Below, one piece after another: positions 8,838 to 38,851 of a DNA stretch of 64,000 bases. Numbering within the stretch: the first letter of the stretch is position 1; every line of letters starts with the position of its first letter. The notes under the pieces were generated by a model. The model did not search any database. It worked only from the letters and a program-made list of their open reading frames with translations, and had not been told where the DNA came from. Origin of the DNA: a virus; the IMG/VR virus record IMGVR_UViG_3300044710_000080, positions 1-64,000 of that record; one strand, written 5' to 3'. A program made the position numbers and the translations under genes.

Positions 8838-10297
8838 GTAACCGTAACACTTATATTCGGCGCGGACACGCCTGGAATTTGATTCGCTTGTACCACCACC
8901 GATCCTGCAGTCGGCACTGCCGCTGTCATGCCGACCTGGCTGCCGATGGTCTGGGAGTTCGTGACGGTATAGGTGCCGGTTCCCCCCGCCGCCCCGGTGA
9001 GCTGGTTGACGATATTGGTTCCCGGCAGGACGCCGACGCCGGTCCCTCCCACGCTACCCGAGACGGTCTGATTCGCCGCGAGCGTGCCGGATGAAACCGC
9101 CGTGACCGTAAGCGTCGTCCCTGCGATGCTCCCCGTGAAGACCGCCGAGGCCGTATTCGGCGAACCGAGCAGGATCGACCGGACCAGCGCCCAAGAGCCT
9201 AGGGCGACCACTGGTGCGACGTAGCGGGTCGCCAGCAGGGTAGACCCTATCCGAGCCCGAGGCCCTCCGTCGGCCCCCGCTGCGGCCGCAATGATGGCAT
9301 TCTGGATCAGTTGCGCCGCGTTCGCTGGGACCTGCGCCCCACTGACGATGCTCACCGCGAACAAGATCGGCAGCGTCGCCGGCCGGTTGAAACTCACGCT
9401 GTAGGACGGCAGGGGAGGGGAATAGCCGGAGTTCGTATCCTGCACCGTCACCGTCGTATTGCCGCCCCCGTAGGAGCAGCCGGGCGCCTTGCGAGACCAG
9501 ATAGCGTTCCCCACCGCCTGGTCCGCCCCGCCAGCGGCCGAGACGTAGAGCGAGTTCGCCGGCAGCGTGACGCCGCCCGCGACGACTTGCCCGTTCGTCG
9601 CGTTCTCCGTTGCATAGGCGTCGACCACGCCGGGAACCGAGAGCACGGCGCCCAGCACCGAGGGCAGCGAGCCCGCCGAGTTCGCCGCGACCGATTGCTG
9701 CCGCCTTGTCTCGAATGCTGATTGGCTCTCCGTGTTCTGCCCGAGCACCCCGGAGATCACCGTCACCGAATCCCACCCCGGGATCGCCTGGAAGATCGAG
9801 ACGCCGTTCGAGGCCGGGACCGCCGTCGGGCCGGGCACCAGCGCCGCAAACGAGACCCCGACCGTGCCGTTGACGCCAATCGTTCCGGAGCCATTCGCCC
9901 CGTACTGATTGCCGGCTTGGTCGACGATCAGCGAGTTGACCGGAATGAAGGTGCCCGAGAGCCCGCTGCAGAGGCAGAACACCGTCGTCGGTTCCGCCGG
10001 CAAGCGGTGGAGGAAGTAGATATTACCGATCGCGTCCTGCATCCGGCCCTGCGCCGTCGCTGGGTCGGTCTGCGTCGTGTAGTAGAGGAACGTGTCGTTC
10101 ACATTGCCGACGATGGCCGCCATGCTCGAGGCAAGCTGGCCCTGGGGCGTCGTTAGCGTCGCCGAGTTGCTGGCTGAGAGATTTAGCCCACCGCCGAACG
10201 CCGCCTGCAGATCGGCGATGACGCCGGTCAGTACCGCGCTCTCGGTCGGGATGACAAACCCAGTCGGTCCGAACGTTGGTTGCGGCACATTCGTCAT
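8834..10297 (-). CDS. Baseplate J-like protein with C-terminal Thr/Gly-rich inserted domain
   Basis: [33 protein letters not shown] motifs; synteny. Confidence 0.9.
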
Positions 10298-10298
10298 T

Positions 10299-10652
10299 TC
10301 AGAAACTCGCGACCGCGGTTGCGCCCGATGCCGTAGTGATCTGTACTTGCCCTGTGACGACTCGTCCCTTGACCGACGAGATGAAGCACTGCGCGGCCGT
10401 GACTCCTGGCACAGTCAGCGCCGCCGCAACAAACTGCGCCTTGAGATACGAGAGCGGCGGCGTCTGCCCGAGGATCGTCTGGAAATAGGGGACACCCCGG
10501 GAAACATCATAAAATAATTCTCCCAGGAACGTGCGGATCGCGCTCGCCGCATCTTGGGCCAGGGCATAGGGCTCTGTTGCCACGGCGATGTTCCCGTTCA
10601 CATCGATGAGCATATCCCACTCCACGGTATCCAAAAGCAGAGTCGATGGCAT
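10299..10652 (-). CDS. Baseplate wedge initiator (gp25-like position)
   Basis: [23 protein letters not shown]; between spike and J. Confidence 0.75.
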
Positions 10653-10653
10653 C

Positions 10654-11304
10654 TCAGGTCCCCGGTATCGGCGGCCCGCTCTGGCCCGCGCCCGTCGTCA
10701 CGCCCGAATGCTTGTGGGTTTCCAAATCCACGGTCCCACTTCCCTTGATGGTGCCGGGGGAGTTGACATTCCCGCTGCTGTCGATCGTCACCCCGTTCAG
10801 GGTGATGCCGTTCGGTGCCGTGATAGTAACACCGGAACCGTTCATTTGTATGTATTGCGTCGGTGCCGACCCGCTCATCGTGCAGCCGAAGTAGGTCGCA
10901 TCGGCCAGATCGAAACGCCGACCGGAACCCGGGGGCGCCTGCGCAAGCGCGGACTTCACCGCCGATATGTCGCGGTCGCTGACGATGGCGAGCCCTTGGT
11001 CGCCGACCACGGGGTCGATGATGATCGCGTTCGCCCCACCCTGGAGCCGGAAGTAGGGGAGGCCGAATATCGTCTGGTGCTTCGTCGCGTTGCCGTTGCC
11101 GTCGACCATGTTCACAAGTGGCGTCACGTCGACAGTCCCGATCGGCGAGAGGCCGCCCGAGGTCGAGACCGCCATCACCTCGACGGGGATCGCCGTGCGT
11201 ACTTCCGCGAGCGCCTGACGGATAAGGAACCGTAGAACATTGTAACGGGAACCCGCATCGCCGGGCTGCATGAAACCGTAACCGAATGTGTTGTCTTCGG
11301 TCAC
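10654..11304 (-). CDS. Baseplate central spike (gpV/gp138-like); start uncertain
   Basis: LPYFRLQGG, DPVVGD.G, DRDIS, C-terminal HKHSGV metal-binding tip. Confidence 0.85.
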   Translation of the reverse strand: MTEDNTFGYGFMQPGDAGSRYNVLRFLIRQALAEVRTAIPVEVMAVSTSGGLSPIGTVDVTPLVNMVDGNGNATKHQTIFGLPYFRLQGGANAIIIDPVVGDQGLAIVSDRDISAVKSALAQAPPGSGRRFDLADATYFGCTMSGSAPTQYIQMNGSGVTITAPNGITLNGVTIDSSGNVNSPGTIKGSGTVDLETHKHSGVTTGAGQSGPPIPGT

Positions 11305-11404
11305 TTCGTGGGTTCCGATGTGGATTTTACCAAGTCGAACATACGACTTCCATACCACCCGAACACAAACCCGATAATTGCCGAGGTGAAAGCGACTGAT
11401 GCTA

Positions 11405-16161: not shown

Positions 16162-17952
16162 CTATTGCAACTCGATCGACGAAAGCTGAATGGCTTGCAC
16201 CGACTGGCCATCACAATACCAGAAGGCGACCGGGGGCGATTGTCGCGCCGCGCGGACCTGGGGTGACGCCGGAAGCGTTTGTAAATACCACCCGCGTTGC
16301 TGGAGGGTCGGCGCAACGTTCGCCCCCGCCTGGTTGTTGACATTTGCGGTCTGCGCTGCCGAGAGCGTCACGCCGGCGCGGATCGCCCCGAAGTTCACCC
16401 CCGCATTGATCGGTCCGGTGAGCGATGCCTCGATCAGAGAATTGCCCGACGGGTTGTAGGGGATCGAGCCGACGCTCACGAGCAGATTGAGCAGCGCGAG
16501 CTGGAATTGATTGTTGAGCCAGATCTGGTCGACGAAGCTGTCGATCCAGGAGAACGGCCCCGAGATCGAACCGGGCGCGAAGAAGATGAAATTCTGCGCC
16601 GCCGTGCCGACCGCCGCATAGCAGTTGTAGCCGTTCGCAACTAGATTCTGATATGCGAGTTGCGCCGTCACCCCCGCGACAAGACCGGACTGCGAACGGC
16701 CTTGGAGTGTCTGCCGCCCATTCGGCTGCTCGAAGTCGATCGAGGCGATGGCACCGCACACGAAAGCGGCGAGGTTCTGGTCGGACGGCTCGTAGACGAG
16801 CACAGTCCCCGAGTAGTTCGATCCGTTCGGCCCGACCAGATAGCCCATGCTGTTCGTCGCCGGCACCGTGGTCGTCGGGTTGATGTCGGTGTCCCAGCAG
16901 ACGAAGACGTAGCGGTTGTTCTGCCCGTTCGCCCACGCTGCGAAGGCAAGTTTTTGCGTCGCCGGCGTCACCCCGCCGTCAGGATCAAATCCGAGCATGA
17001 AAGTCGCCCAGTTCTGAGTGATCTGGACGATTGCGTTCATGAAGGCTGCCGGCGTGGCCGCCGCGGCACCCTGCGAGAGCACCGCCCCGGTGAGCGAGGT
17101 CAGCTGCAGCGCAGCCGATGCGCCAGTCCCGCCGGCAAGCGTCCCGGTTGCAAACGCCGAAGTCGAGGGCGCCCCGGTTATCCCTGAGGTGATGATGAAG
17201 GCCCCGGAGACCGAATCGTAAGTCACGACCACCGGCGTCGGCTCGAGCGTGATCGGTGACGACGACATGGTCTGGTTGACGCTGACCCCGTAGGTGCCCG
17301 TCCCGCCGGCCGTGCCGGTGATCTGCGAGAGAACCACAGTGCTCGCCGCGACCCCGGTGCCGATCACAGTCTGCCCGATGGCGATGTTGTTCCCGGAGAT
17401 GCCGGTCACCGTCATCGTCCCGCCGGTGATGGTGGCGGTCCCGGTCGCCAGGATGATCGGGTTGCCGTTGAGTCCGGTCTGGATCAGCGCCGCAGCCGCC
17501 GAGAAACTCGCCGCGCCGGAAAGGACGATCGAGGAGGCGACGCGCGCGTAGCCATCCATCGTCACCGAGAGCGAGCCGGAGAGGGCCTGCAGCTGCGCCA
17601 ACGTGAGCGCCGCGACGCTCGCCCCGCGCAAATAGGCCGCGGCCGCCGAGGTATTGTATTGGGCGAATAGGACCGAGCCGGGTTTCACCAGCGAATTGTC
17701 GAAGCCGCCGAAGTAGCCGCTGCCGAGCCCGGAGCCGCCGCCTGCGATCTGCGCCTCCTTCGAGGAAGCACCGAAGAAACTCGCCACCGAGGCCGCAGAA
17801 CCGAAGGCCTGGACCGTCGGGGTGTTCGTGCCCGAGAGCGGAACCCGCGTGCTGGTCGTCAGGATCAGCCCGATCAGGTCGAGCTCTGCCCCGCCCGCGC
17901 TGATGACGCTCGGCGTGACGTTGACAAAGGTGGAGGCCGGGATCGTGGTCAT
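16162..17952 (-). CDS. Tail sheath protein (DUF3383-like) with inserted Thr/Gly-rich domain
   Basis: TIPAS.FV.VTPSVISAGG, QNWATF, SIPYN..G, RAARQSP..FWY.DG.SVQ. Confidence 0.9.
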   Translation of the reverse strand: MTTIPASTFVNVTPSVISAGGAELDLIGLILTTSTRVPLSGTNTPTVQAFGSAASVASFFGASSKEAQIAGGGSGLGSGYFGGFDNSLVKPGSVLFAQYNTSAAAAYLRGASVAALTLAQLQALSGSLSVTMDGYARVASSIVLSGAASFSAAAALIQTGLNGNPIILATGTATITGGTMTVTGISGNNIAIGQTVIGTGVAASTVVLSQITGTAGGTGTYGVSVNQTMSSSPITLEPTPVVVTYDSVSGAFIITSGITGAPSTSAFATGTLAGGTGASAALQLTSLTGAVLSQGAAAATPAAFMNAIVQITQNWATFMLGFDPDGGVTPATQKLAFAAWANGQNNRYVFVCWDTDINPTTTVPATNSMGYLVGPNGSNYSGTVLVYEPSDQNLAAFVCGAIASIDFEQPNGRQTLQGRSQSGLVAGVTAQLAYQNLVANGYNCYAAVGTAAQNFIFFAPGSISGPFSWIDSFVDQIWLNNQFQLALLNLLVSVGSIPYNPSGNSLIEASLTGPINAGVNFGAIRAGVTLSAAQTANVNNQAGANVAPTLQQRGWYLQTLPASPQVRAARQSPPVAFWYCDGQSVQAIQLSSIELQ

Positions 17953-18029
17953 GTGATCTCCTCGGCCAAGGCTGGCCATAGGTTGCTACTTGGCTTAAGA
18001 TGCCGCTGCACTGGGGATCGAAAACTGCC

Positions 18030-18674: not shown

Positions 18675-19345
18675 TTCGCTTGCATATGAGCTTCAACAAC
18701 CCATCTCGTTTCCCACTGCTGCTCCGCATTGATGAATGGAATCTGCTTTGGGTCGTCCGCGTGGAGTGGTGTCACGCCCACGATGGGATTTCCTCCGCCG
18801 TCGAGCGCGGCCGCGAAGGCGTCAACCCCGAACTGATCCCGGAACAAGGTCGTGATGATCTGGGCGTTGTCGGAACTGCCAGGTCCGTGCACGTCGAGCT
18901 GGAAGACGGCGTCGACCGGCTGGAGGAATGATTCGGCCCCGCACGACATGGTCTGGCTCGGCGACGTCTGGCTCGGAGCGACCAGGTACGTGCCCGTCCC
19001 GCCCGGAGTGCCGGTGAGTTGATTCGTGATCGTGGAGTTCACCGCGACCCCGGTGCCGAAGAGCGTTGCCCCGCTGCCGATGGTCCCGAGCCGCAGCGCG
19101 GAAACTGTCATCGTCGTCCCGGCGATCGAGGCCGTGAAGGCTACGTCCGCGTAGGAATCGACGTTGGTCTCGATGCGGTCGCGGCGGAGCGGCCAGAAGA
19201 CGACGAAGTCAGAAAACTGCGGCTCGGCAACCCGATTTGCCTGCCCAGCGACGATTTGACCAGCGGAAAATTGCGGGAGGGCGCTAAGGAGGAAGGCCCG
19301 AAGGGCGGTCTGCACGTTTGACGACGTCGGAGCGACCGCGGTCAT
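18608..19345 (-). CDS. Tail terminator/neck protein with inserted Thr/Gly-rich domain
   Basis: [37 protein letters not shown]; upstream of sheath. Confidence 0.8.
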
Positions 19346-26277: not shown

Positions 26278-26879
26278 TAGAAGTCCACACGCTTGCCGGC
26301 GCCCGAATGTGGAAATGGTAAAACGTACTCATAACGCCGAGTTAAACGCGCATCCGACCCTTCGCATCCATCGTCCCAAGTCTTTCGCGTATCGGTGCAA
26401 ACGCTCAAACCGTTATCTTCGACGACGAACGTGATCGGCAGGCAATGCCCGCGCGCATAGTTCCAGCATTCGTGATAGATGCCCGTGCGACTTGTCATGT
26501 CCCCGAGAAAGGCCCAACAGCGCTCATCCTTCCCCGCTCGCTTGATCGCCCATGCGATCCCGAGCGCGATGGGCAGAACCCCGCCGACGATGGCGGATGA
26601 GATCACCCGACGCGCGGGAAAATTCAACGCAATCGAATGGCCTTTCAAAATCGCGGCCCGCAGTTCCTCTGGCGGCACGCCCTTGAGCAAACAGTGGTAG
26701 TGCGACCTCCAAGAAACTGCGCACCAGTCCTGTTCACGCACGTCGGCGAAGATGTCCAGCAAGGCCTGCTCATTGCCGCCGGCCAGATGTATGGGGGACC
26801 GGATGCGTGCCGCATTGAAGTCAGCAGCCACGGATTCCTCAAACGCGCGGAGAGATTCGACAGTGTGGTTCGTGATCAT
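26277..26879 (-). CDS. ThDP-dependent enzyme, E1-alpha-like subunit
   Basis: PIHL..GNE, WRSHYH, SAIVGG, ThDP motif variant GDM...EDN. Confidence 0.85.
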   Translation of the reverse strand: MITNHTVESLRAFEESVAADFNAARIRSPIHLAGGNEQALLDIFADVREQDWCAVSWRSHYHCLLKGVPPEELRAAILKGHSIALNFPARRVISSAIVGGVLPIALGIAWAIKRAGKDERCWAFLGDMTSRTGIYHECWNYARGHCLPITFVVEDNGLSVCTDTRKTWDDGCEGSDARLTRRYEYVLPFPHSGAGKRVDF

Positions 26880-27610: not shown

Positions 27611-27612
27611 GT

Positions 27613-27843
27613 TTATCGCCGTTTCCTTGCGGGCACTTCTTCCGCTGGAGGCTTCACAAGAAGTTGGCGAGCATGCTCACTGAGCGGCTTCAAGTCGGGC
27701 CGGACCTTCATCAGCGCGCTTATGAGTTCGTCGATTTCTTCGCGCGTACAGATTGATCCGCCAAGCACCACAGCGGGGCCGACAGATGTTTCCCCACCTG
27801 GATGCACAAGATTTACCATTTGGGTATGGATGATGTAAGGCAT
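27613..27843 (-). CDS. Hypothetical protein
   Basis: GGAG RBS; first ORF after promoter at 27880. Confidence 0.5.
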   Translation of the reverse strand: MPYIIHTQMVNLVHPGGETSVGPAVVLGGSICTREEIDELISALMKVRPDLKPLSEHARQLLVKPPAEEVPARKRR

Positions 27844-27879
27844 AATGAATCTCCCGGCCGGTTCAGGTTGCCCAATCCG

Positions 27880-27907
27880 ACTATAGGGAAAATTGTCCCG
27901 GTGTCTA
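27880..27907 (-). promoter_or_regulatory. Sigma70-like promoter with operator in spacer
   Basis: TAGACA-16-TATAGT; spacer contains GGGACAATTTTCCC. Confidence 0.7.
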
Positions 27908-28237
27908 GTGGGTAGTGACCGTAGCGGCCTCGGGCTTGACGCCCATACGGTTTTTCTGGGCGGCCTCAACGGCGAGGGCGCGGACGCGGCCGAGCGTGGC
28001 CTCGAAACCGGATTCGGCCCATCCCGGCTTCTGGCGCATGTCGTCCACGATTTCGGCGAAGATGAGCGCGTCGGGCGGGCGCAGGGCGAGCGACCTTCCA
28101 GCGATGCTCTGGTAGACCCTCCATCCGGTGCCGTGGTCGTAGTGGATGCCGACCTGCAACGCCGACCCCGGCGGGGCGGTCGAGATGTGCAGGAGCCAGC
28201 CCTTGATCTGGAGGAGGCGCTTGCGCTTGCCGCTCAT
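27905..28237 (-). CDS. Hypothetical protein
   Basis: High-GC3 ORF abutting neighbours. Confidence 0.5.
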   Translation of the reverse strand: MSGKRKRLLQIKGWLLHISTAPPGSALQVGIHYDHGTGWRVYQSIAGRSLALRPPDALIFAEIVDDMRQKPGWAESGFEATLGRVRALAVEAAQKNRMGVKPEAATVTTH

Positions 28238-28573
28238 TCAGGTCAGGCCTTCGATCTTCCCGTTCGTGACGTGGAAGTGCGCGTTGCATCCGCCGGTGAG
28301 TTGGACCGAACTTGAGCCAGCAACCAGCGTCAGGTCGTCGATCCCGGTCCCGGTCAGGTTCCAGCGCCCCGGTTGCGGCGACACGTCCTGCGGGACTGAG
28401 GGCGACCAGCAAATGACCGAATGCACGCCGATCCCATCTGGATGCCCGAGAAAGCACTTCGGGCAAAGGAACATCACGCCGTCCGCACCCGCAATCACGT
28501 CGCCCACATCTTGAAATGTGTGATGGCTTTCCAGTTTGAGGAACTTCGCCTCTAGCTCGCGGAGTGTCGTCAT
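28238..28573 (-). CDS. Cys/His metal-binding protein (DUF6527-like)
   Basis: FLCPKC..H...W...DLTL..S......C.AHF.V.NG.I. Confidence 0.65.
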   Translation of the reverse strand: MTTLRELEAKFLKLESHHTFQDVGDVIAGADGVMFLCPKCFLGHPDGIGVHSVICWSPSVPQDVSPQPGRWNLTGTGIDDLTLVAGSSSVQLTGGCNAHFHVTNGKIEGLT

Positions 28574-29508
28574 GCCGCCACCGCCTTCTTCACCCGCGCC
28601 GGGTCGAGCACCCCGATATGGTCCAGCGCCCGCCCGACGCAGACCTCGGGCGGGAACTTCGCCTTGAACTTCTCGAATTGCGAGGCCCACACCCCGCGCC
28701 AGGCCGCCCGCACCAGCAGGCATTGGCTGTAGAAGCCCTCGATCGTGTCGGAGAATCGCACAACTTCATCCCATGGCTTCGACAGCAAATGCGGCTCCGC
28801 GACCACCGGGCGCCCAAGGCAGAGCGCCGTGTTACATCGGGACGACGATACAAGGCCCATCGATTCGAACTTCCTCACCTGGATGATGACCTTCGCCCGC
28901 CGCATCGTCTCGTCGCGTTCCTGCTGCGTCGCGAAGTCGACCACCAGCCGCACCGCCTTCTCCGTCCCCACCCGCTTCGCCAGCCGCTTCAAGATCGAGT
29001 GCCGCCGCGGTGTGAGCGACCCGTAGAACCCGAACTCGTAGTCCGGCTCCTTGTCGGTGATGCGCACCAGCGTCGGCGCATACCCGAGCTCGATCGGCGC
29101 CGCCGGCGCGAATTGCCCGTACCACTTCGTCACATGCTCGCCTGGCACCAGATGCAGGATCCCCTCGCAATACTTCGCCGCATCCGGGAACCGCTCCTGC
29201 CGGTAGACCATCTCCCGCTGCGTGCCCTGGTTGAAGCCCCGTTCGCTCGGCTCCTCCGTCGCCAGGATGATCCAGCGCGCGCCTTGCTGCGCCGCATTCG
29301 CTACCAGATTAACGCTGTCCTTCGTGAAGCCTTCGACAATGACGTTGATGCCATCGGCCCCGCTGACAAGTTTGGTATTTGAGGCATCCCATACTGCTTT
29401 GTGGCCCAAGGCATTGATTTGATGGCCGAAAATTGCAATTACGTCCTCAAGAGAACGCTGTCCTACTTCACTGTGGTTACCTAAAAAAAAGCAAAATTGT
29501 TGGCCCAT
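28570..29508 (-). CDS. Putative GT-B glycosyltransferase
   Basis: FGFYGSLTPRR, RDETMRRAKVIIQV, SSSRC..AL..G.PVVAE. Confidence 0.7.
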   Translation of the reverse strand: MGQQFCFFLGNHSEVGQRSLEDVIAIFGHQINALGHKAVWDASNTKLVSGADGINVIVEGFTKDSVNLVANAAQQGARWIILATEEPSERGFNQGTQREMVYRQERFPDAAKYCEGILHLVPGEHVTKWYGQFAPAAPIELGYAPTLVRITDKEPDYEFGFYGSLTPRRHSILKRLAKRVGTEKAVRLVVDFATQQERDETMRRAKVIIQVRKFESMGLVSSSRCNTALCLGRPVVAEPHLLSKPWDEVVRFSDTIEGFYSQCLLVRAAWRGVWASQFEKFKAKFPPEVCVGRALDHIGVLDPARVKKAVAA

Positions 29509-29951
29509 TATTTCACCTCGAAAGCAATAGCATTGATGGTTTCTGAGGTGTGAATCCATGGCTTGTCAAACCCTTTGCGGGCTATCGTCGATGCCTTCAA
29601 CGGTGGGCTCGTGATCGTCGCCACTGATTCGCGAAGCTCGCCGCTGATCTGCTCACCGACCATGGCCATTGCGGGCTTGGCGTCGAAGTCGGTTTGTTTG
29701 AGAGCGGCGGCGACGGCCTCGCCCCACTTCGGGGATTTGGCGGCGATCATGTTGCGAAAGGCGGGCCTGGGCGGCTGGCCGCGCGAGGGCACGCCGTACT
29801 CGGTGAGAGCGGCGCGGAGGGGAATCGACATGCCGTCTGAGCCCGTGGCTCCTTCGAGCCATCCGACCCGGAGGTTTGCGGGCGTGGTGATGTGCTGCGC
29901 GAGCTCGTTCAGCTTTTGCCGCAATTTCTCTCCCCCGCTGATGGTCGCCAT
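29508..29951 (-). CDS. Neck/tail completion protein (HK97 gp10-like)
   Basis: VGWLEGAT, EYG, PPRP.FR, PPL..STIARKGFDKP. Confidence 0.8.
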   Translation of the reverse strand: MATISGGEKLRQKLNELAQHITTPANLRVGWLEGATGSDGMSIPLRAALTEYGVPSRGQPPRPAFRNMIAAKSPKWGEAVAAALKQTDFDAKPAMAMVGEQISGELRESVATITSPPLKASTIARKGFDKPWIHTSETINAIAFEVK

Positions 29952-30386
29952 TTTCAAAACCCCTGGATACCGAGCAAGTGTAGCAGACCGCAGAGGAAGG
30001 CGATGTAGAGAACTTGCCCGAAGGTGAGGTCGAAGAGGAAGATGGCGTCGCTCATCGGGGCATCCGTCCGGCTTTTCTTCCCCGCGTGCCGGACAACGCG
30101 GTTACAAACCTGCGGCGTGAGACAAGTCCAAGGACGCACGGCATCGCTAGATGCTCTCCGCAGGACCGGAAGCTAATTGCGCCTCCACCATAGCCTGATG
30201 CCAGGGCGCAAGTCATGATAGGGGCAGTGGGGTTCATCCTCCAAGACCTCAAACTGTTGGCGCCAGAACTCCATCGCCGCGCGCACGAAAGATACCCGAT
30301 AAAGAACCGATCGATTACGCGACCGCGCCATGCGCCTTGTGATAATCTTGTGTGTTGCCGCCAAATTTATCATCCGAATGACTCGC

Positions 30387-31565
30387 TCATCGCAGCCACG
30401 GCAGCGCCCCTTCCGCCTCCTCCAGAGTCTCGTATCGGACAATGCCCGGCCGGTTGCGGTGCGATGGCGTTGCGAGGTCGAGCGAGCCGAGCCGGTGCGG
30501 CACCACGTAGACCCCGCCATCGTAGGAGACAAGGTTCATTGAGCCGACGGTGGCGAGGAGTTGGGGATTCGTCGGGGGCGCGAAGATGGCCCCTCCCGGC
30601 TTCTCCGTCGGGAGGGGCGCGGTTTTATCGTCGGACCCCTGAGGGCTCGTTCGTAGTCCTCCATGCTGCACCACCTCGCTTCCCTGCTGGAGGCCAATTC
30701 GCTCGAAGACTGAGGTCCAGAACGGCCGCGCGGCGTGCCGCTCGAGCATCTTGCCCCGCATCCGCTCCGCCATTTCGCGGTCGGCGTCGCCACGGGAAGG
30801 GGCGGCCCGGATGATCTGCTCTGCGTGGTCGTCGGAGCCATACTCGAGGAAATCGACCCCGGGCTCGAACCACGTCCGCGCCGGCGAGTCACTCGGCTCG
30901 AGCAGGCAGGCCCCGGCGAGCGAGGCCTCGACGAACCGGCCTTTGACGTGCCGCTTCTGGCCGGTGCCGGTCCGAGCGTCGTTGATGACGATCCGGCAAC
31001 CCGAATAGAAGGCGCAGACCTCCGGGTAGGAAACCCATGCCCCCGGGTTGAGCCATACGAGGCCGCTAGATGCGAGTCGCTGCAGGATGGGGGTCCTAGC
31101 ACCCCCACCCCCGCAAAAACCCGCCAGCGTGCCCCGCTGGGGCCAGGGGAGGGGGTTAAACATGCCGGGATCGACCGGGGTGAGCGCCACAAGGCCGAAA
31201 CGGGCGATCGGGTTCTCCCGGGATCCGTCGATTGCGACCTGGAGGCGGAACGCCCCGGCGCGATCGTATTCCTCGAGGAGCGGCCACCAGGGCGGGTCGG
31301 CGGCGTCGGAGCAGATGTGCACCATCGGCGCCACCCCGTTCGCCCGCCAGAGGGCGTCCGTCGTCGGGATCGGGCACCCGTCCTGGTGCGGCATGCAGGC
31401 GCCGATGTAGACGATGACATCCGGGCGGTGCTGCTCGGCGATAGCGCCAACATCGGCGCCGAAGACGTCATACCGGACGACCGCAGTATCGGGGACAACC
31501 GCCGTGAACGAGCGGACGAGTTTTTCAGTGTCGGGCGTTCTTGTAGTGAGGCAAAGGCCCTTCAT
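30387..31565 (-). CDS. GT-B glycosyltransferase (CgeB-like)
   Basis: CRIVIN...HVKGRFVEASLAGACLLE...WFEPGVDFLEY. Confidence 0.8.
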   Translation of the reverse strand: MKGLCLTTRTPDTEKLVRSFTAVVPDTAVVRYDVFGADVGAIAEQHRPDVIVYIGACMPHQDGCPIPTTDALWRANGVAPMVHICSDAADPPWWPLLEEYDRAGAFRLQVAIDGSRENPIARFGLVALTPVDPGMFNPLPWPQRGTLAGFCGGGGARTPILQRLASSGLVWLNPGAWVSYPEVCAFYSGCRIVINDARTGTGQKRHVKGRFVEASLAGACLLEPSDSPARTWFEPGVDFLEYGSDDHAEQIIRAAPSRGDADREMAERMRGKMLERHAARPFWTSVFERIGLQQGSEVVQHGGLRTSPQGSDDKTAPLPTEKPGGAIFAPPTNPQLLATVGSMNLVSYDGGVYVVPHRLGSLDLATPSHRNRPGIVRYETLEEAEGALPWLR

Positions 31566-31737
31566 GATTTTGCTGCTCGTGTGCGAAGGATGATGTTCAA
31601 TCCTTCATCTGAGCACGCACGTTCCGTGAGATCGTTGTAAAGTACCGCCGCCTCATACTGCGATTTGCAGACGACGGTGAAGTGAACCTCACTCAAAATC
31701 ATCGAAATCCGTCCAGCCTGAAATGAGAATGGTTCGC

Positions 31738-32007
31738 TCATGCCGTCACCTTTATTGCGGGTGGAGGTGGACGAGGCCGAGACCGCAGCGACCGATCTAC
31801 CCAGAGACGCCCCGGTTCTAAGATCAGGAAACCGGGTATAGGCCGAGCCGTAGGCCCTCTCACTTCGCTGAGACGACATTCGCGCATGAGCCCTTTCCGG
31901 ACCAATGCTTCCCCCGTCTGCCAATTGTCAGGCCAACGGTCAATCCACCCCCGCGGTTCGCGAGCAGCGAAATGCAGCATCTCGCGTTGAGGTGCGCTCA
32001 ACCGCAT
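31738..32007 (-). CDS. Small winged-helix-like protein
   Basis: LSAPQREML...TGEALVRKGL...ILEPGR. Confidence 0.4.
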   Translation of the reverse strand: MRLSAPQREMLHFAAREPRGWIDRWPDNWQTGEALVRKGLMRECRLSEVRGPTARPIPGFLILEPGRLWVDRSLRSRPRPPPPAIKVTA

Positions 32008-32549
32008 AGCTCTGCAAACCGTTTGAATGGCACGCCGCCGGGTTCGCGATATTCAGCCCACGGCCAGCGGCGCAGTATCGATTCGTCCTGAGCTCTGAGT
32101 ATCGCGGTACGCTCGCCGTCCGGAGCGAGTGCGAAAATCCACCGATCCTTGACGCTCTCCTGCTGGCCCTCAGACCATGCGCCGTTGCCAGTAGGCGGTG
32201 GACGAAGGCGATGCCAAGTCGGCGCCCACCACCAATTGCAGGCCCGGTAAAGCGTCCCGGTATGGCCTACCGATGGGTCCGAATAGCTGACGATGGTCGT
32301 CGCATCCGGCCGGATGGCGCGCAACGCGCGCACGAACGCCGCCCATTGTCGGCTGCCGTCGTTGCGGATTCCGCGGATAAGGCACCAGCGCACCAGCTCG
32401 AGCCAGTGGCCGGGAAGCCGACGCGCAGTCGGCGATGCAATCACGATGGCGCCGAACTCGTCCCTCCACGCAACACCGCGATCAACTGCGCCGAGATAGT
32501 GGTTCTCGGCGAGCAGTCCAGCGATTGATCGGCAAGAAGTCCAAGTCAT
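31998..32549 (-). CDS. mom: Mom-like (GNAT-fold) DNA modification protein
   Basis: HYLG, ELVRW, IVSYSDPSVGHTGTLYRACNW. Confidence 0.75.
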   Translation of the reverse strand: MTWTSCRSIAGLLAENHYLGAVDRGVAWRDEFGAIVIASPTARRLPGHWLELVRWCLIRGIRNDGSRQWAAFVRALRAIRPDATTIVSYSDPSVGHTGTLYRACNWWWAPTWHRLRPPPTGNGAWSEGQQESVKDRWIFALAPDGERTAILRAQDESILRRWPWAEYREPGGVPFKRFAELCG

Positions 32550-33571
32550 GCCAGCACCTTCATCCCGATCCGCTCCAGCACCTTACCCCAGAACGCGGAG
32601 GGGGAGTGGCGCTCGATGACCTTGCGGCGGAGCGAGAGCGCCATTTTCTGCGCCTCTTCTGGATTCCCTTCAAGCCATTCCAAGCCGCGTCGAATATCGG
32701 AGATTCCTTGATCCGGCCCTTGATAGCAGCGGTAATCTTTGCCCATCTCAAACCACTGACAAGTGGGCGACATTTCATTCTCGAAGAGCACCGCCCCCGC
32801 GAGCGCCGTCTCTATCACCCGCGCCTTGACGTGCATCCGGTCCCCGCTCCCGGTCGCGGCGTGGTTCCAGACGCAACGGCAGGAAGAGAGGAAATCGCGA
32901 TAGCCGGCTTGGCTCGGGTCGGTGTGGTCGCGGTCGCTGATCGTCAGCAGGCCGGCGCCGAGGAGCGAACGGATCGCCGGCGTGCGCGGGTGCAGATAGC
33001 CGCCCGGGGGCGGGTCGCCGAGCTGGTAACTGCCGCGGAAGCCGAGCCGCACCGGCCGCTCCGCCCACGGCCGCGGCGGATCCGGAAACCCGGCGGGGTC
33101 GATCGGGCAGAGCCCCGTCATGCCGAACTCGCCAATCGGCCCATCCCTCACGCCGTCGATGTTGACCTGGAGCGCGAAGCAGCCCGCATCCTGATAGCGC
33201 CGCAGCTGCGGCCACCAGTCGGCCTCCGACCCATCGCAGCACAGGTGCACGAACGGGTGCCGTCGGCCTATCTCGCGGAGCACATCGACATTCGGCATCA
33301 GCGCCCCGCCAGCATCGCAGCAGCCGATCATGAGCACCCAATCCGGCCCCTGCGAATCCACAAGGGCCGGGAGGCGCTCGAAATAGCGATGGTCGGGCAG
33401 AACCTCGATCCCCTCTGCGGAGAATTGCCGCCGGTGCTGCTCGTAATCCCCCGCGTTGTGCACGTTCATGAGGTCATAGACGATGGGCTTGACCTCGTGC
33501 CCGAGGCCGCGCAACGGCTCGTAGATCGGCGGGCAGCTGGTGGAGAATGTCCGGAGGACCGTTACGCGCAT
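32546..33571 (-). CDS. GT-B glycosyltransferase, paralogue of 30387-31565
   Basis: Shared VH.C.D...WWP.L..Y..AG.F.LQV.IDG and HVK.R..E..LAGA.L.E. Confidence 0.8.
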   Translation of the reverse strand: MRVTVLRTFSTSCPPIYEPLRGLGHEVKPIVYDLMNVHNAGDYEQHRRQFSAEGIEVLPDHRYFERLPALVDSQGPDWVLMIGCCDAGGALMPNVDVLREIGRRHPFVHLCCDGSEADWWPQLRRYQDAGCFALQVNIDGVRDGPIGEFGMTGLCPIDPAGFPDPPRPWAERPVRLGFRGSYQLGDPPPGGYLHPRTPAIRSLLGAGLLTISDRDHTDPSQAGYRDFLSSCRCVWNHAATGSGDRMHVKARVIETALAGAVLFENEMSPTCQWFEMGKDYRCYQGPDQGISDIRRGLEWLEGNPEEAQKMALSLRRKVIERHSPSAFWGKVLERIGMKVLA

Positions 33572-33840
33572 CAGCCTGTCCCCGCCCGTTCATGTTCGGG
33601 CGCGCCTTGCTCGCCGCCCCACGTTGGACGCACGCCGGTTTCCTGTTCGATGATGTCGCCGACGGCATCGCGCATTATGTCCATAAACGCTTGCTTGCGA
33701 ACCGGATGATCGCGCACGAACGCCATCGCGATCGATCCGAGCCAAAGCGCCCCCTCCATAGTATCTGGCATCGCGTAGTAGGCGTTCCAGTTGTTGCCCT
33801 CTACGCGCAACGAAAGACGACCAATCTGCTGTTTTTTCAT
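33571..33840 (-). CDS. Hypothetical phage protein
   Basis: GRLSLRVEG..WNAYYA; coupled to neighbours. Confidence 0.6.
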   Translation of the reverse strand: MKKQQIGRLSLRVEGNNWNAYYAMPDTMEGALWLGSIAMAFVRDHPVRKQAFMDIMRDAVGDIIEQETGVRPTWGGEQGAPEHERAGTG

Positions 33841-34613
33841 TGCGGCTTCCCCTTCCAGATCGTCCGCGCCCCGGCCGGCAGCATGTCGAGCGGGACATCA
33901 ACGTTGAACCCGCGCAGACTCGTCACGTCATAGCCCGCCCCGTACCGATTCGCCCACCGGGAGAGGAAGAGGGCCATGTCGGCCGCCGTCGTATGGGCTT
34001 CCCCAATCCAGTCAGCACCGCCGCTCAATACTGGCATCTTCCGAGCGTCGTCGGCCAGTACCCGCACCAGCGGCTCGCGCGACCACTCACACCGCCCGCC
34101 CGCGCTCCATACCCGCATCCCGAGATCGCAGTCCGCGAAGCCGACCCGATAGTCCCCAGTGAGCCAGAGGCCACGCGCAGCGTCGCGTCGGCGCATCAGC
34201 GGGAAGTAGGGATAGTAGTTGCCGAAGACGGTCCCGATTCGCAGCGTAAAGGCTTGGCGCAGCCCGAGGCAGAATGGCGATGGCGGGCCGCCTCGGTCTG
34301 CAAACGCGAACTCCCGCGCGAGAAAATTGTCGAGCGCAATCTCATCCCATCCCGGCACGAACTCGTGGTCGTCGACCCAGGCGAGGACGAAGTCACCAGT
34401 CGTCTTTCGCAGCGCAGCCTCATGCGCGGCATTAGCGCCTTCCGAGTCGCCCTCCTTTATCCAGACGACGCGGACGCGCCGGTCGAACTTGAGTGCCGGC
34501 TCGTAAGGGGAAACGACGATGATCTCGACATTGTCGTGCACCGTCGCTCGGATATTGTCGAGCGCGCGCTCCAGCGCGGGCGGGTGCAGGGAAGGGAGGG
34601 TGATCGAGATCAT
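33837..34613 (-). CDS. GT-A (family 2-like) glycosyltransferase
   Basis: ISITLPS, EIIVV, G.NAA, GDFVLAWVDD, FADCDLGMR. Confidence 0.85.
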   Translation of the reverse strand: MISITLPSLHPPALERALDNIRATVHDNVEIIVVSPYEPALKFDRRVRVVWIKEGDSEGANAAHEAALRKTTGDFVLAWVDDHEFVPGWDEIALDNFLAREFAFADRGGPPSPFCLGLRQAFTLRIGTVFGNYYPYFPLMRRRDAARGLWLTGDYRVGFADCDLGMRVWSAGGRCEWSREPLVRVLADDARKMPVLSGGADWIGEAHTTAADMALFLSRWANRYGAGYDVTSLRGFNVDVPLDMLPAGARTIWKGKPQ

Positions 34614-36598: not shown

Positions 36599-36760
36599 CG
36601 GGAGCTCCTTTTGCTCGTTCCTTGCTGCCCAACCAGTCGATGACCTTCGCGTGCCACCGCTGCGGCAGACCGCCCGACACCATCAGCGTGCGGACCTGAT
36701 TCTCGCCCAACTCCTCGAGCCGGGCGACGACATCGACCTCTTGCGTGGCGACGAGCGGCA

Positions 36761-37864
36761 TCAGATCCCGATCATCGACGAGATACAGACCGGCATACGG
36801 ACGACCGCACCGAATGTTCCCCCAGTTTGCTTCTGTCTAAAGGCGGACATCGCACGAATGATGGGATGCGCGCGCATGCGCTCGTTGAAGGCGCAGTAGC
36901 CGGTGTCCTGGCCTTCGAGCGTGCGCGCGATCAGCTGCGCGAAGTTGCCGCCTGCAACGCCTTGCGGGTTCGTCGAGGAAAGCACGCCGTACTGGATCGC
37001 GCTCTCGACGGTGAGCCCGGGGAAGTTCTTCTTCAGCAAGTCGGAGACGTTGACGTTGAAGGAGTTCGTCGCGGTCAGCGCGCCCTCGGAGATCGGCGAG
37101 AGTGCGAGCACCATCTTCGTCTCGCGATCGACAAGGCCCGCCGTCTGGTTGACCAGCTGCAGGAACATCGCCTCGATGTCGAGGAAGATTTCGTTCGCGG
37201 TCGCATTGACCGCGGTGCCGACCGTCCAGGCCGTGCCGCCGGCCGCCTTCGTACCGGGGGTCAGGGAGGCCGTGAGCGACGGATCGTTGAGCAGGCCGTA
37301 GTTCTGCAGCCCCTTCACCCCGAACGCATAGGTGAGGTTCTGGAACTTGTTCATCACGGTCGCGGCGGCCTTGTCGACCTCCGAGACCCAGTTGATGCGG
37401 CCGAGGCCGGCGCGCTCGAGTTGGAGCTCGCCGTACTCCTTGACCACCTGGTAGAGGTAGGCTTGGCGCTGGGGCCAGTTCATGTTCACGCCAGCGACGC
37501 CGTTCTCGTTCCAGTCGCCGTAGGACGAGACCTCGCCGGTGTGCTCGACAGTCGGGAACATCACGGTCTGGTCGAGCCAAGTCCCCTTGCGGACCTCGCC
37601 GTAGATTTCCGCGATCTTGTTCGGCGCGAACAGGATCTCGTAAACCGCCGGGTCGATCAGAGTCGTCAGGAACGCCGGGATGCCGGCATTCGGCGACGTA
37701 GTCAGCGTCGGCTGCGCGTCCAGCGCGAGGGTGTAGTCCCTGCGGAACGGTTCGGGCACATAGCCGAACGGTTCCGCGCCATCGACGAAGCTGATCCCTG
37801 CCTCGAAGTAACCGGCCCTGTCGGCATGCCAGGCCGCCCGAGCTTCCTGCAGCGTTCCGTACAT
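36761..37864 (-). CDS. Major capsid protein
   Basis: NAGIPAFLTT.IDP, GEVSSYGD, YGLLNDP, QKQTGGTFGAV; synteny. Confidence 0.9.
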   Translation of the reverse strand: MYGTLQEARAAWHADRAGYFEAGISFVDGAEPFGYVPEPFRRDYTLALDAQPTLTTSPNAGIPAFLTTLIDPAVYEILFAPNKIAEIYGEVRKGTWLDQTVMFPTVEHTGEVSSYGDWNENGVAGVNMNWPQRQAYLYQVVKEYGELQLERAGLGRINWVSEVDKAAATVMNKFQNLTYAFGVKGLQNYGLLNDPSLTASLTPGTKAAGGTAWTVGTAVNATANEIFLDIEAMFLQLVNQTAGLVDRETKMVLALSPISEGALTATNSFNVNVSDLLKKNFPGLTVESAIQYGVLSSTNPQGVAGGNFAQLIARTLEGQDTGYCAFNERMRAHPIIRAMSAFRQKQTGGTFGAVVRMPVCISSMIGI

Positions 37865-37909
37865 TTTCGGTGCTCCTATGGGTCCTGGTGGCCTCTACCC
37901 TGCCGCGCC

Positions 37910-38851
37910 CTAGCCGAGCGCGACCGCGCTGATCTTCACGAGCTCACCCGCGAGCCCCTCCGACATGGCGATCCACTTCGTCTCGACGTTGAGGTTCGAG
38001 CCGATCGGGGAGGACGACATATTCTGCGCGGGCGTGACGATGTAGGTGCCGGTGCTCCCGGCTCCCGTGCCCAAGGCGACAATCTGCGTGTTCGCCGCGA
38101 CCCCCGAGCCGGTGACGACGTCTCCGACCCCGAAGCCGGCGGTCGTGATCGCCGTGACGTTGAGCAGGCCCCAGGTCTCGGTCAGCAGCGCCGAGGCGAC
38201 GGTCTGCTCGCCGAAATTCAGCAGGTACGTCCCGGTGCCGCCGATCGAGCCGGTGAGTTGCGAGACGATGGCCGTGTTCGTGATGACGCCGGTGCCGCCA
38301 GTGATGAGGCCGCCGATGACCAGCGTGCCCGTCGCGACGTTCGTCACCGTCATGACGTTGCCAGTGATCGAGGCGTTGAAGGTCGCCGTCGTCGAGGCGA
38401 TCGTCCCGGTGCCGAGCGCGCCGCCGATGGGCGAACCGGTCGCCGCGAAGTTCGCCGCCCCGTTCGAGAAGGCCGCATAGGCCTTCTGCCCGATGAGCGC
38501 CGTGGTCGTGCCCTCGTTCTTGACCCAAAAGTCGCCGGTCGAGAACAGCGTGATCGGGAACCCCTGCGGAACCAGCATCGAGGATTCCGCGAGATAGGTC
38601 GTGATGAGCGCCTGCTGCTCGCGGTGCACGAAGCCGGTGACCGGCCCGGTGCCGGTGTTGCTCACGCTCGTCGGCGCGCCGACATCATCGAGCGGTGCGA
38701 CCGCCCAGGCGAAGCGCCCGACCGTGACGCCATTCGGCCCCGCGACGAGGCCGCCCGCGCCGGCGAGAACCGAGTTGCGGGGATTGGAACTGGCGAAATC
38801 GCCCGCCACTGCTACGGCAGGCTGGACCCCGACCTGCGTTTGAAACGGCAT
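37910..38851 (-). CDS. Head decoration/cement protein with two Thr/Gly-rich inserted domains
   Basis: AVAGDFAS.NP, GFVHREQQALIT, GDFWV, ETKW; between protease and capsid. Confidence 0.8.
   Translation of the reverse strand: MPFQTQVGVQPAVAVAGDFASSNPRNSVLAGAGGLVAGPNGVTVGRFAWAVAPLDDVGAPTSVSNTGTGPVTGFVHREQQALITTYLAESSMLVPQGFPITLFSTGDFWVKNEGTTTALIGQKAYAAFSNGAANFAATGSPIGGALGTGTIASTTATFNASITGNVMTVTNVATGTLVIGGLITGGTGVITNTAIVSQLTGSIGGTGTYLLNFGEQTVASALLTETWGLLNVTAITTAGFGVGDVVTGSGVAANTQIVALGTGAGSTGTYIVTPAQNMSSSPIGSNLNVETKWIAMSEGLAGELVKISAVALG

What the first reader, a model, noticed from the sequence alone, without database searches (positions are those of the whole stretch)
8939..38380. The same ~65-aa Thr/Ser/Gly domain is grafted into four unrelated virion proteins (5 copies)
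Seen: approximate consensus F..SI.G..(M/L)TV.....G.(L/I)..G..(V/I).G.GV...T.I..QLTG..GGTGTY.V...QT. It occurs in baseplate J (~8939-9142, [12 protein letters not shown]), sheath (~17248-17448, QITGTAGGTGTY), tail terminator (~18944-19138, [12 protein letters not shown]) and cement twice (~38192-38380 QLTGSIGGTGTY; ~38003-38167 ALGTGAGSTGTY). Each copy interrupts or extends an otherwise recognisable protein. Sheath and cement are high-copy, so the domain would tile head and tail. Inference: a portable surface module, plausibly the O-glycan acceptor for the co-encoded GTs, or else an adhesion domain.
Basis: partly seen in the sequence, partly recalled or inferred. Interest (0 to 1): 0.88.

Follow-up and report, generated by a model that had tools for sequence, protein, structure and literature searches.

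The report
Uncharged beta-barrel module decorating phage virion proteins
A small, almost uncharged Thr/Ser/Gly-rich beta-barrel domain, missing from the Pfam and NCBIfam copies searched, is inserted into four outward-facing virion proteins of this phage and its uncultured relatives, but it shows no link to the phage's sugar genes.

Summary
Five copies of a ~65-aa domain sit in baseplate J, sheath, tail terminator and cement (two copies). Leave-one-out HMMs recover each copy at E 6e-10 to 8e-17, against background of 0.1 or worse. Alignment to Burkholderia phage PE067 orthologues shows each copy as a clean insertion.

The domain folds alone as a beta-barrel (AF2 pLDDT 96.8). The nearest solved fold is the Arthrobacter phage Bridgette gp7 capsid decoration protein (Z 6.9). 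It matches no Pfam or NCBIfam model, yet 6,304 protein-cluster representatives carry it. These include tail fibres, tailspikes, RHS and autotransporter proteins, with arrays of up to 26 matched stretches.

In related uncultured phages the same four proteins carry 1-3 copies. Major capsid, tube, tape measure, protease and portal proteins never do. Cultured relatives lack it.

None of 19 near-complete domain-bearing genomes, and 1 of 38 records overall, encodes a GT1 or GT2 glycosyltransferase. The sugar cluster occurs only in a small sub-lineage, and the domain's composition is the same with or without it.

Best reading: a promiscuous virion-surface decoration or adhesion module, playing the role known for phage Ig-like domains. 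Function is inferred, not shown.

The parts
8834..10297 (-). Baseplate J-like wedge protein (487 aa), the carrier of one domain copy
   Evidence: PF04865 at E 8e-9 and phrog_6 at E 2.5e-43. It is 50% identical to the PE067 baseplate J protein, which is 75 aa shorter.
8912..9145 (-). Domain copy 1 (residues ~385-462), inserted just before the conserved C-terminal strand of baseplate J
   Evidence: HMM E 4e-28; leave-one-out i-E 3e-13; motif [12 protein letters not shown].
16162..17979 (-). DUF3383-type contractile tail sheath (605 aa), the carrier of one domain copy
   Evidence: PF11863 at E 1.3e-108 in two stretches. It is 58% identical to the PE067 sheath and homologous to the E217 gp31 and gp32 sheaths in the PDB.
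17233..17448 (-). Domain copy 2 (residues ~178-249), inserted in the part that aligns with the peripheral 'flexible domain' of the Pa193 sheath
   Evidence: HMM E 6.5e-31. It appears as a clean 76-aa gap in PE067. The insertion site maps to about residues 150-183 of the solved sheath, inside the flexible domain 91-210 described in PMC11456595.
18608..19345 (-). Neck/tail terminator protein (245 aa), the carrier of one domain copy
   Evidence: PF23961 at E 3.8e-17 in two stretches, and NF047498. It is 46% identical to the PE067 orthologue, which is 64 aa shorter.
18941..19144 (-). Domain copy 3 (residues ~68-135), the copy that was folded
   Evidence: HMM E 4.5e-31. AF2 with a 37-sequence alignment gives pLDDT 96.8 and an all-beta fold.
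37910..38851 (-). Capsid cement / minor head protein (313 aa), the carrier of two tandem copies
   Evidence: PF23982 at E 1.1e-27, PF22758 at E 2.9e-13 and phrog_2122. The PE067 orthologue has only 158 aa.
38180..38389 (-). Domain copy 4 (first cement copy)
   Evidence: HMM E 5e-28; motif QLTGSIGGTGTY. Its best match elsewhere is the first copy of other phages' cement proteins.
37985..38182 (-). Domain copy 5 (second cement copy, the most divergent)
   Evidence: HMM E 6e-28; leave-one-out i-E 6e-10; motif ALGTGAGSTGTY. Its best match elsewhere is the second copy of other phages' cement proteins.
20411..34613 (-). Context only: a sugar-biosynthesis and glycosyltransferase cluster lying between the head and tail modules. 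No evidence links it to the domain.
   Evidence: Pfam assignments:
- B12-binding radical SAM enzyme, 20411-21928
- cupin, 22170-22577
- NAD epimerase/dehydratase, 22689-23822
- DegT aminotransferase, 24011-25156
- Transket_pyr, 25664-26182, and E1_dh, 26277-26933
- CgeB-like GTs (PF13524), 30387-31565 and 32546-33571
- Mom-family protein, 31998-32549
- weak GT2 match, 33837-34613

Homologous clusters were found in only 5-6 viral contigs.

Best explanation
The five copies belong to one autonomous domain family of about 65 residues. It folds as a six-stranded beta-barrel.

Shown here:
- The family's composition is extreme: Thr 21%, Gly 17%, Ser 12%, and only 3% charged residues.
- In this phage lineage the domain was inserted long ago into loops or near-terminal positions of the cement protein, sheath, neck terminator and baseplate wedge. 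The insertions have been inherited vertically, with copy number drifting between 1 and 3 per protein.
- The domain's presence does not depend on phage-encoded glycosyltransferases.

Inferred:
- All four carriers face outward, so head, tail, neck and baseplate would be tiled with it. If stoichiometries resemble phage E217, that means hundreds to more than a thousand copies per virion.
- It most likely works as a non-catalytic surface decoration. Like the Ig-like, FN3 and BACON domains of other phages, it would give weak, multivalent, reversible contacts with polysaccharide on the host envelope or the surrounding matrix, and so raise the chance of productive adsorption.
For: The domain is real and autonomous.
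- Leave-one-out HMMs recover every copy.
- AF2 of the isolated domain gives pLDDT 96.8.
- 6,304 representative proteins match at E<=1e-3 and 1,963 at E<=1e-10. Some carry arrays of up to 26 matched stretches.

The copies are insertions.
- The PE067 orthologues lack exactly these segments.
- 105 cultured-phage records match only the N-terminal core of the cement protein; none reaches the domain part.

The domain sits only on the outside.
- Among 79 viral loci it is carried by sheath (47 of 56 orthologues), terminator (40/52), cement (33/37), baseplate J (20/25) and a neck protein (14/51).
- It is never carried by major capsid protein (0/40), tube (0/50), tape measure (0/41), protease/scaffold (0/36) or portal (0/15).
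- The sheath insertion maps into the peripheral flexible domain of the solved Pa193 sheath.
- E217 cement trimers form surface protrusions on the capsid.

The grafts are old.
- Each window copy best matches the same carrier and the same position in other phages.

Elsewhere the domain keeps surface or adhesin company.
- It occurs in tail fibres with Collar and DUF7359 domains, a pectate-lyase tailspike, RHS proteins and an autotransporter passenger region.
- BFVD shows the same domain (TM about 0.9, 38-49% identity) in a side tail fibre, a gpJ-like tip protein, a P22 gp10-like protein, an HK97-type capsid protein and Indivirus collagen-repeat proteins.

Fold.
- The nearest solved fold is the Bridgette gp7 capsid decoration protein: Foldseek TM 0.70, VIA Z 6.9, 25% identity. 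Its role as a decoration protein is stated in bioRxiv 10.1101/2022.09.09.507160.
Against: - No ligand or binding site has been identified.
- The domain has almost no aromatic residues: Trp 0.1%, Phe 1.7%, and one invariant Tyr. From the strand pattern I infer that this Tyr faces the core. Classical carbohydrate-binding modules use aromatic platforms.
- Six copies at the neck terminator is an odd place for an adhesin.
- Long tandem arrays in giant bacterial proteins fit a passive spacer as well as a binder.
- All fold matches are below Z 8, which may reflect only a common barrel arrangement.
- Surface exposure is inferred from homologous structures and from which proteins carry the domain. No model of these proteins themselves was obtained: the full-length single-sequence fold failed at pLDDT 30.
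- The loci were chosen because they contain the domain, so the carrier fractions are inflated. Only the contrast between protein classes is safe.
Confidence: 0.45

Rival explanations
1. Glycan acceptor. In this phage and the few relatives that carry the sugar cluster, the Thr/Ser-coated barrels are the sites where the phage-encoded glycosyltransferases attach an unusual branched amino sugar. Head and tail would then be covered with glycan.
For: - The window encodes a 14-kb sugar-synthesis and GT cluster on the same strand as the late structural genes, lying between head and tail genes.
- Homologues of its GT occur in 6 viral contigs. 3 of the 5 tested carry the domain, with the cluster again between head and tail genes.
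- The barrels are 33% Ser+Thr, are placed in outward-facing virion proteins, and would be present in high copy.
- Virion glycosylation by phage-encoded GTs is known in mycobacteriophages Che8 and Rita (PMC11256854).
Against: - None of 19 near-complete domain-bearing genomes, and 1 of 38 records overall, carries a GT of PF13524, PF00535, PF00534 or PF13692.
- The domain predates the cluster and is far more widespread: homologues of the cluster were found in only about 5 of the fetched loci.
- Composition and the Gly-rich loop variant do not differ between GT-plus and GT-minus phages.
- GT-plus records do not have more copies.
- The GT-plus contigs share gene order with the window, so their co-occurrence with the domain is not independent evidence.
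- The GTs match no characterised protein glycosyltransferase.
- The cluster could equally act on the host envelope or on another target.
Confidence: 0.17
2. Structural brace or inert hydrophilic coat. The barrels bind no ligand. They either contact neighbouring subunits to stiffen the capsid and the extended sheath, or form an uncharged, hydroxyl-rich layer that limits non-specific sticking, proteolysis or recognition.
For: - Two carriers, cement and terminator, are themselves stabilising proteins.
- The nearest solved fold, Bridgette gp7, is a capsid-bound decoration dimer.
- The domain has only 3% charged residues and almost no aromatics, which is unusual for a binding module.
- Tandem arrays in giant proteins resemble spacer or stalk domains.
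Against: - Copy number varies freely (1-3) at the same site among close relatives, and cultured relatives build the same virion without the domain. It is therefore not needed for assembly or stability.
- It also occurs in tail fibres and tailspikes, where bracing is unlikely.
Confidence: 0.25
3. Compositional artefact. The similarity is only low-complexity Thr/Ser/Gly-rich sequence common in phage structural proteins, not a homologous folded domain.
For: - The composition is strongly biased.
- BLAST with low-complexity filtering finds nothing in cultured phages.
Against: - Conservation is position-specific: five invariant residues in the 37-sequence alignment and an alternating hydrophobic pattern.
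- Length is fixed at about 65 aa with sharp boundaries.
- The AF2 barrel is confident, at pLDDT 96.8.
- BFVD models superpose at TM about 0.9.
- Leave-one-out E-values reach 8e-17, against a background of 0.1 or worse.
Confidence: 0.01

Closest known systems
Ig-like, FN3 and BACON accessory domains on phage structural proteins (Fraser et al. 2006, 'Ig-like domains on bacteriophages: a tale of promiscuity and deceit'; T4 Hoc; lambda gpV C-terminus; crAssphage BACON). The Fraser reference is cited from my own knowledge; BACON repeats are described in PMC6949934.
   Same: - A small, autonomous, non-essential domain added promiscuously to many different virion proteins: capsid decoration, tail, baseplate and fibres.
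- Copy number is variable, and close relatives can lack it.
- It is shared with bacterial surface proteins.
- The proposed role is weak adhesion to surface carbohydrate.
   Different: - The fold is a closed beta-barrel of the EF-Tu domain II type, not an Ig beta-sandwich.
- There is no Pfam Ig, FN3 or BACON match.
- The composition is extreme: 50% Thr+Gly+Ser and 3% charged residues.
- It is usually inserted inside the carrier rather than appended.
- One genome decorates four or five different proteins at once.
Arthrobacter phage Bridgette gp7 capsid decoration protein (PDB 8ECI)
   Same: - It is the best structural match: Foldseek TM 0.70 with probability 1.00, VIA Z 6.9, rmsd 2.2 A over 63 residues, 21-25% identity.
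- It sits on the outside of a capsid.
   Different: - gp7 is a stand-alone 124-aa protein that binds as dimers around pentons.
- No sequence-level relationship is detectable: the profile search of the PDB gave a best E of 0.6, to an unrelated chain.
- Z below 8 may be a common barrel arrangement only.
Mycobacteriophage virion glycosylation (Che8, Rita and others; Freeman et al. 2023, cited through PMC11256854)
   Same: - The phage encodes glycosyltransferases alongside abundant, Ser/Thr-rich surface elements on head and tail proteins.
   Different: - From my own knowledge, the acceptors there are extensions of the major capsid and tail tube subunits. Here the capsid and tube orthologues never carry the domain (0/40 and 0/50).
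- The domain occurs overwhelmingly in phages without GTs.
- No glycan evidence exists here.
Beta-barrel insertion domains of phage tailspikes and tail proteins (endosialidase endoNF and phi92, phi92 colanidase gp150, Acinetobacter phage Solidus gp83, Mystique tail tube insertion)
   Same: They are small barrels inserted in virion surface proteins, with weak structural similarity at Z 5.2-5.8.
   Different: - The scores are low, with Foldseek E above 1.
- There is no sequence similarity.
- Function cannot be transferred from these matches.

Membership tests
Carrier families: Baseplate_J (PF04865), DUF3383 sheath (PF11863), neck terminator (PF23961), XM1 gp53 / E217 gp24 cement (PF23982, PF22758) | A Pfam match above the gathering score for each carrier protein | tested here: met
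   Scores were 35.6, 364.5, 62.8, 97.3 and 50.6 bits, all above the curated cut-offs. The sheath and terminator matches are split in two by the insertion.
Any described protein domain family (Pfam-A 2025, NCBIfam 20.0) | The domain itself matches a curated model | tested here: not met
   - No Pfam family reached E<=0.01 for any of the five copies. The best was REJ at E 0.09 in one copy.
- Arrays of the domain in P0005, P0007, P0011, P0016, P0024, P0028 and P0030 gave no Pfam match at all.
- NCBIfam gave none.
- Only PHROG 21413 (function unknown) and PHROG 38233 ('tail fiber protein') contain it as an internal segment.
Phage Ig-like decoration domains (Big_2, I-set, FN3) | Immunoglobulin-type beta-sandwich fold or a sequence match | tested here: not met
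   The AF2 model is a closed barrel. Its best matches are Bridgette gp7 and translation-factor domain II, not Ig folds. There is no Pfam Ig-family hit.
Phage Ig-like decoration domains (Big_2, I-set, FN3) | Promiscuous, dispensable addition to diverse virion structural proteins | tested here: met
   - At least five carrier classes occur in this lineage, with 1-3 copies each.
- Other carriers appear in BFVD.
- Cultured orthologues lack the domain.
Phage Ig-like decoration domains (Big_2, I-set, FN3) | Weak binding to cell-surface or matrix carbohydrate | not testable with these tools
   This needs binding assays with purified domain or with virions.
Virion glycosylation acceptor (mycobacteriophage type) | Co-occurrence of the acceptor element with phage-encoded glycosyltransferases | tested here: not met
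   - PF13524: 0 of 38 records. PF00535: 0 of 38.
- PF00534: 1 of 38, below the cut-off. PF13692: 1 of 24. Both hits are in the same incomplete record.
- 0 of 19 genomes at least 90% complete.
- The positive control on the window's own genome gave 2 hits.
Virion glycosylation acceptor (mycobacteriophage type) | Covalent glycan on Ser/Thr of the element in virions | not testable with these tools
   This needs mass spectrometry of virions or of co-expressed protein.
Bridgette gp7-like capsid decoration protein | Shared fold well above background | tested here: inconclusive
   It is the top hit in both searches (TM 0.70; Z 6.9, rmsd 2.2 A, 63 residues aligned). However, it ties with unrelated barrels at Z 6.4-6.9, and Z below 8 is common by chance.
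Bridgette gp7-like capsid decoration protein | Detectable sequence homology | tested here: not met
   The profile of the five copies against all PDB sequences gave only one hit, at E 0.6, to an unrelated chain.
Translation-factor domain II / F1-ATPase N-terminal beta-barrel fold | Six-stranded closed barrel that superposes on the model | tested here: inconclusive
   There are many matches at Z 5.6-6.6 over 67-69 residues but only 6-16% identity. This shows a similar fold class, with no evidence of common descent or function.

The most novel reading that the evidence does not exclude
In the sub-lineage that acquired the sugar cluster (this phage plus about five metagenomic relatives), the hydroxyl-coated barrels serve as folded scaffolds for O-linked attachment of a branched, methylated amino sugar. 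More than a thousand glycans would then be displayed over head, sheath, neck and baseplate.

To my knowledge, that would be the first virion glycosylation system in a myovirus related to phages of Gram-negative hosts, and the first with a dedicated folded acceptor domain.
Probability: 0.15. Interest if true: 0.85.

Novelty: new variant of a known kind. Interest (0 to 1): 0.5.

Why it matters
Accessory decoration domains on phage particles are known, but almost all described cases are Ig-like, FN3 or BACON folds.

- Here a different domain family fills that role. It is absent from the Pfam and NCBIfam copies searched, yet very large, at about 6,300 clusters at 50% identity.
- It marks a clade of 60-75-kb phages known only from metagenomes, in which four or five virion proteins are decorated at once. 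It also links phage virions to bacterial RHS, autotransporter and giant surface proteins.
- Defining the family would improve annotation of thousands of 'hypothetical' tail fibre, sheath and cement proteins.
- It offers a compact, self-folding, loop-insertable, nearly charge-free display scaffold.
- Negative result: phage-encoded sugar clusters should not be assumed to target the most Ser/Thr-rich surface element.

Tried and rejected
- Single-sequence AF2 of the whole terminator protein failed (pLDDT 30).
- tblastn of one domain copy against 50,697 cultured phage records found nothing. BLAST's low-complexity filter probably masks this composition, so I do not read this as absence. The cement-protein search and an HMM scan of two cultured relatives are the better evidence that cultured relatives lack the domain.
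With a single protein it returned only four bacterial loci: Rhizobium, Pseudooceanicola, an alphaproteobacterial MAG and Terriglobus. The taxonomic range in cellular genomes is therefore poorly sampled.
- The ESM Atlas was unavailable for the query.
- I considered that DUF7359 might be the same domain under a Pfam name. The DUF7359 match listed for P0010 (residues 594-648) lies outside all eight domain stretches in that protein, so I rejected this.
- I looked for a feature of the Gly-rich loop specific to GT-encoding phages, comparing the 'Q-L-T-G' and 'G-T-G' variants. There is none: the window's variant is the commonest in GT-less phages.
- I looked for homology of the window's GTs to characterised protein glycosyltransferases in the PDB and NCBIfam. 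There is none.
- The earlier-findings index returned only another first-stage note on this same stretch, about signal peptides. It has no bearing here.
- I did not send a complex-prediction job, because the report makes no claim that particular proteins bind each other.

Full report
**What the window is.** The window is the first 64 kb of a 75,025-bp IMG/VR virus record with direct terminal repeats, rated 100% complete.
- Genes run on the minus strand. The order is terminase, portal, head morphogenesis, protease/scaffold, cement, major capsid, small connector genes, a roughly 14-kb sugar cluster, neck genes, terminator, sheath, tube, tape measure and baseplate.
- The structural module is of the E217 / XM1 / Burkholderia PE067 type, with a DUF3383 sheath and a beta-tulip cement protein.

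**Checking the observation.**
- An HMM of the five copies, run over all six frames, finds those five places and nothing else in the window or the whole genome.
- Leaving each copy out in turn, the other four recover it at i-E 6e-10 to 8e-17. The best unrelated ORF scores 0.1 or worse.
- PHROG 21413 independently matches the same segment in all four proteins.
- The copies are 34-52% identical in protein and 48-58% in DNA, so they are old.
- Against Burkholderia phage PE067 orthologues (37-58% identical), each copy is a clean insertion. It lies mid-protein in sheath and terminator, and just before the last conserved strand in baseplate J and cement, which has two copies.

**What the domain is.** With a 37-sequence alignment the isolated domain folds as an all-beta structure at pLDDT 96.8.
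- Foldseek and VIA-align both rank the capsid decoration protein gp7 of Arthrobacter phage Bridgette (8ECI) first: TM 0.70; Z 6.9, rmsd 2.2 A, 63 residues, 21-25% identity.
- Next come the domain II barrels of translation GTPases (Z about 6.5) and, more weakly, barrel insertions of several phage tail proteins and tailspikes. All are below Z 8, so only the fold class is secure. Bridgette gp7 binds as dimers around the pentons.
- No Pfam or NCBIfam model matches the domain, and no PDB sequence matches its profile.
- The family is nevertheless very large: 6,304 representatives of 50%-identity clusters at E<=1e-3 and 1,963 at E<=1e-10, with up to 26 matched stretches in a single protein.
- Identifiable partners are Collar and DUF7359 tail fibres, a pectate-lyase-type tailspike, a DUF3383 sheath with four tandem copies at the same site, RHS proteins and an autotransporter passenger region.
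- In BFVD the same domain (TM about 0.9, 38-49% identity) sits in a side tail fibre, a gpJ-like tip protein, a P22 gp10-like protein, an HK97-type capsid protein, an auto-chaperone fibre and Indivirus collagen-repeat proteins.
- Across 677 distinct instances the composition is Thr 21%, Gly 17%, Ser 12%, Val 10% and Ala 10%, with only 3% Asp+Glu+Lys+Arg. The Gly-x-x-Gly-Gly-x-Gly-Thr-Tyr turn is near-invariant.
- The strand pattern puts Val, Ile, Leu and the Tyr inside, and rows of Thr and Ser outside (the inside/outside assignment is inferred).

**The lineage-wide pattern.** At least 403 stretches in IMG/VR encode the domain.
- In 38 records of 30 kb or more, it occurs typically 5-12 times, in several different ORFs.
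- Most of these records share the window's structural genes. Sorting domain-bearing ORFs by their core homology gives these counts:

| Carries the domain | Orthologues with it | Copies |
|---|---|---|
| Sheath | 47 of 56 | 1-3 |
| Terminator | 40 of 52 | 1-2 |
| Cement | 33 of 37 | 1-3 |
| Baseplate J | 20 of 25 | 1-3 |
| Neck protein (orthologue of 19843-20244; no copy in the window) | 14 of 51 | 1-2 |

| Never carries it | Orthologues with it |
|---|---|
| Major capsid | 0 of 40 |
| Tube | 0 of 50 |
| Tape measure | 0 of 41 |
| Protease/scaffold | 0 of 36 |
| Portal | 0 of 15 |

- These loci were chosen for having the domain, so the carrier fractions are inflated. The contrast between outward-facing and internal or covered proteins is not affected by that.
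- Each window copy is most similar to the copy at the same position of the same carrier in other phages, so the grafts are old and vertically inherited.
- The sheath insertion maps to residues of the solved Pa193 sheath that lie in its peripheral 'flexible domain', 91-210. E217 cement trimers protrude from the capsid.
- Cultured relatives lack the domain. These are roughly 44-kb Burkholderia, Acinetobacter, Aeromonas, Ralstonia and Pseudomonas phages. The decorated branch is so far known only from metagenomes.

**The glycosyltransferase hypothesis.** The window does hold a striking cluster between head and tail genes.
- Its genes are a B12-radical-SAM enzyme, a cupin, an NAD epimerase/dehydratase, a DegT aminotransferase, a split thiamine-diphosphate enzyme, two CgeB-like GTs, a Mom-family protein and a weak GT2 match.
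That is what I find.

| GT family | Records with a match |
|---|---|
| PF13524 | 0 of 38 |
| PF00535 | 0 of 38 |
| PF00534 | 1 of 38, below cut-off |
| PF13692 | 1 of 24 |

- The PF00534 and PF13692 matches are in the same incomplete record. None of the 19 genomes at least 90% complete has any of the four families. The search does detect the window's own two GTs.
- In most relatives, cement and terminator lie 3.5-5 kb apart, as in PE067, leaving no room for such a cluster.
- In the reverse direction, homologues of the window's GT occur in six viral contigs, and three of five tested carry the domain. These contigs share the terminator and sheath genes and have the cluster in the same place, so they are one sub-lineage, not independent evidence.
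- Loop variants and composition do not differ between GT-plus and GT-minus phages.
- The domain therefore did not evolve as, and does not generally serve as, the acceptor for phage GTs. It remains a reasonable candidate acceptor in this one sub-lineage, if the cluster glycosylates virions at all. I put that at about 15-17%.

**How it most likely works.**
- Shown: it is a self-folding barrel, inserted in outward-facing virion proteins, dispensable for assembly, variable in copy number, and shared with fibres, spikes and bacterial surface proteins.
- Inferred: it is a surface decoration giving weak multivalent contacts with envelope or matrix polysaccharide, the role proposed for phage Ig-like domains.
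- Against this stand the lack of aromatic residues and the neck location.
- A passive brace or an uncharged hydrophilic coat is therefore a serious rival, at about 25%.

**Verdict.** The 'portable surface module' reading is supported, and the glycan-acceptor link is not. The thing itself is a new domain family playing a known kind of role. It is of moderate interest, mainly for its size, its odd chemistry and the all-over decoration of an uncultured phage clade.

Noticed in passing
window 20411-34613 (- strand): A cluster of about 14 kb for making and transferring an unusual sugar is wedged between the head and tail modules, in the late operon. It encodes a B12-radical-SAM enzyme, a cupin, an epimerase/dehydratase, a DegT aminotransferase, a split TPP enzyme (E1_dh plus Transket_pyr), two CgeB-like GTs and a weak GT2 match. 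Homologous clusters lie at the same position in a few viral contigs (L009, L085, L086, L088; one is a complete 118-kb DTR genome). Its target is unknown: virion, host envelope or DNA.
   Followed up: partly
window 31998-32549 (- strand): A Mom-family protein (PF25680, E 3.5e-12) sits between the two CgeB-like glycosyltransferases. Mom of phage Mu modifies DNA adenine. Here it may instead acylate the amino sugar, or it may hint that the cluster acts on DNA.
   Followed up: no
window 19843-20244 (- strand) and loci L001-L079: The orthologue of this 133-aa neck protein carries one or two copies of the domain in 14 of 51 related phages, but none in the window. It is a fifth carrier class and shows ongoing gain or loss.
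   Followed up: partly
(genome sizes): Cultured relatives with the same structural module are about 44 kb and lack the domain. The uncultured domain-bearing relatives are mostly 60-75 kb with 5-12 copies, and several are listed as proviruses.
   Followed up: partly
window 55302-56723 (- strand): A 473-aa ORF combines ParB-like nuclease/partition matches at the N-terminus with DNA methyltransferase matches at the C-terminus (phrog_498, E 8e-121).
   Followed up: no
window 8109-8837 (- strand): The 242-aa ORF just downstream of baseplate J matches PHROG 314, labelled 'homing endonuclease'. At this position relatives have a DUF2612-type baseplate or fibre protein, so the label may be a misnomer, or an endonuclease may have been inserted here.
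   Followed up: no
BFVD hits A0A1V0SCQ2 and A0A1V0SDM6: Collagen-triple-helix-repeat proteins of the giant virus Indivirus ILV1 contain a barrel 32-33% identical to the phage domain (TM 0.77-0.87). The family therefore reaches eukaryote-infecting giant viruses.
   Followed up: no
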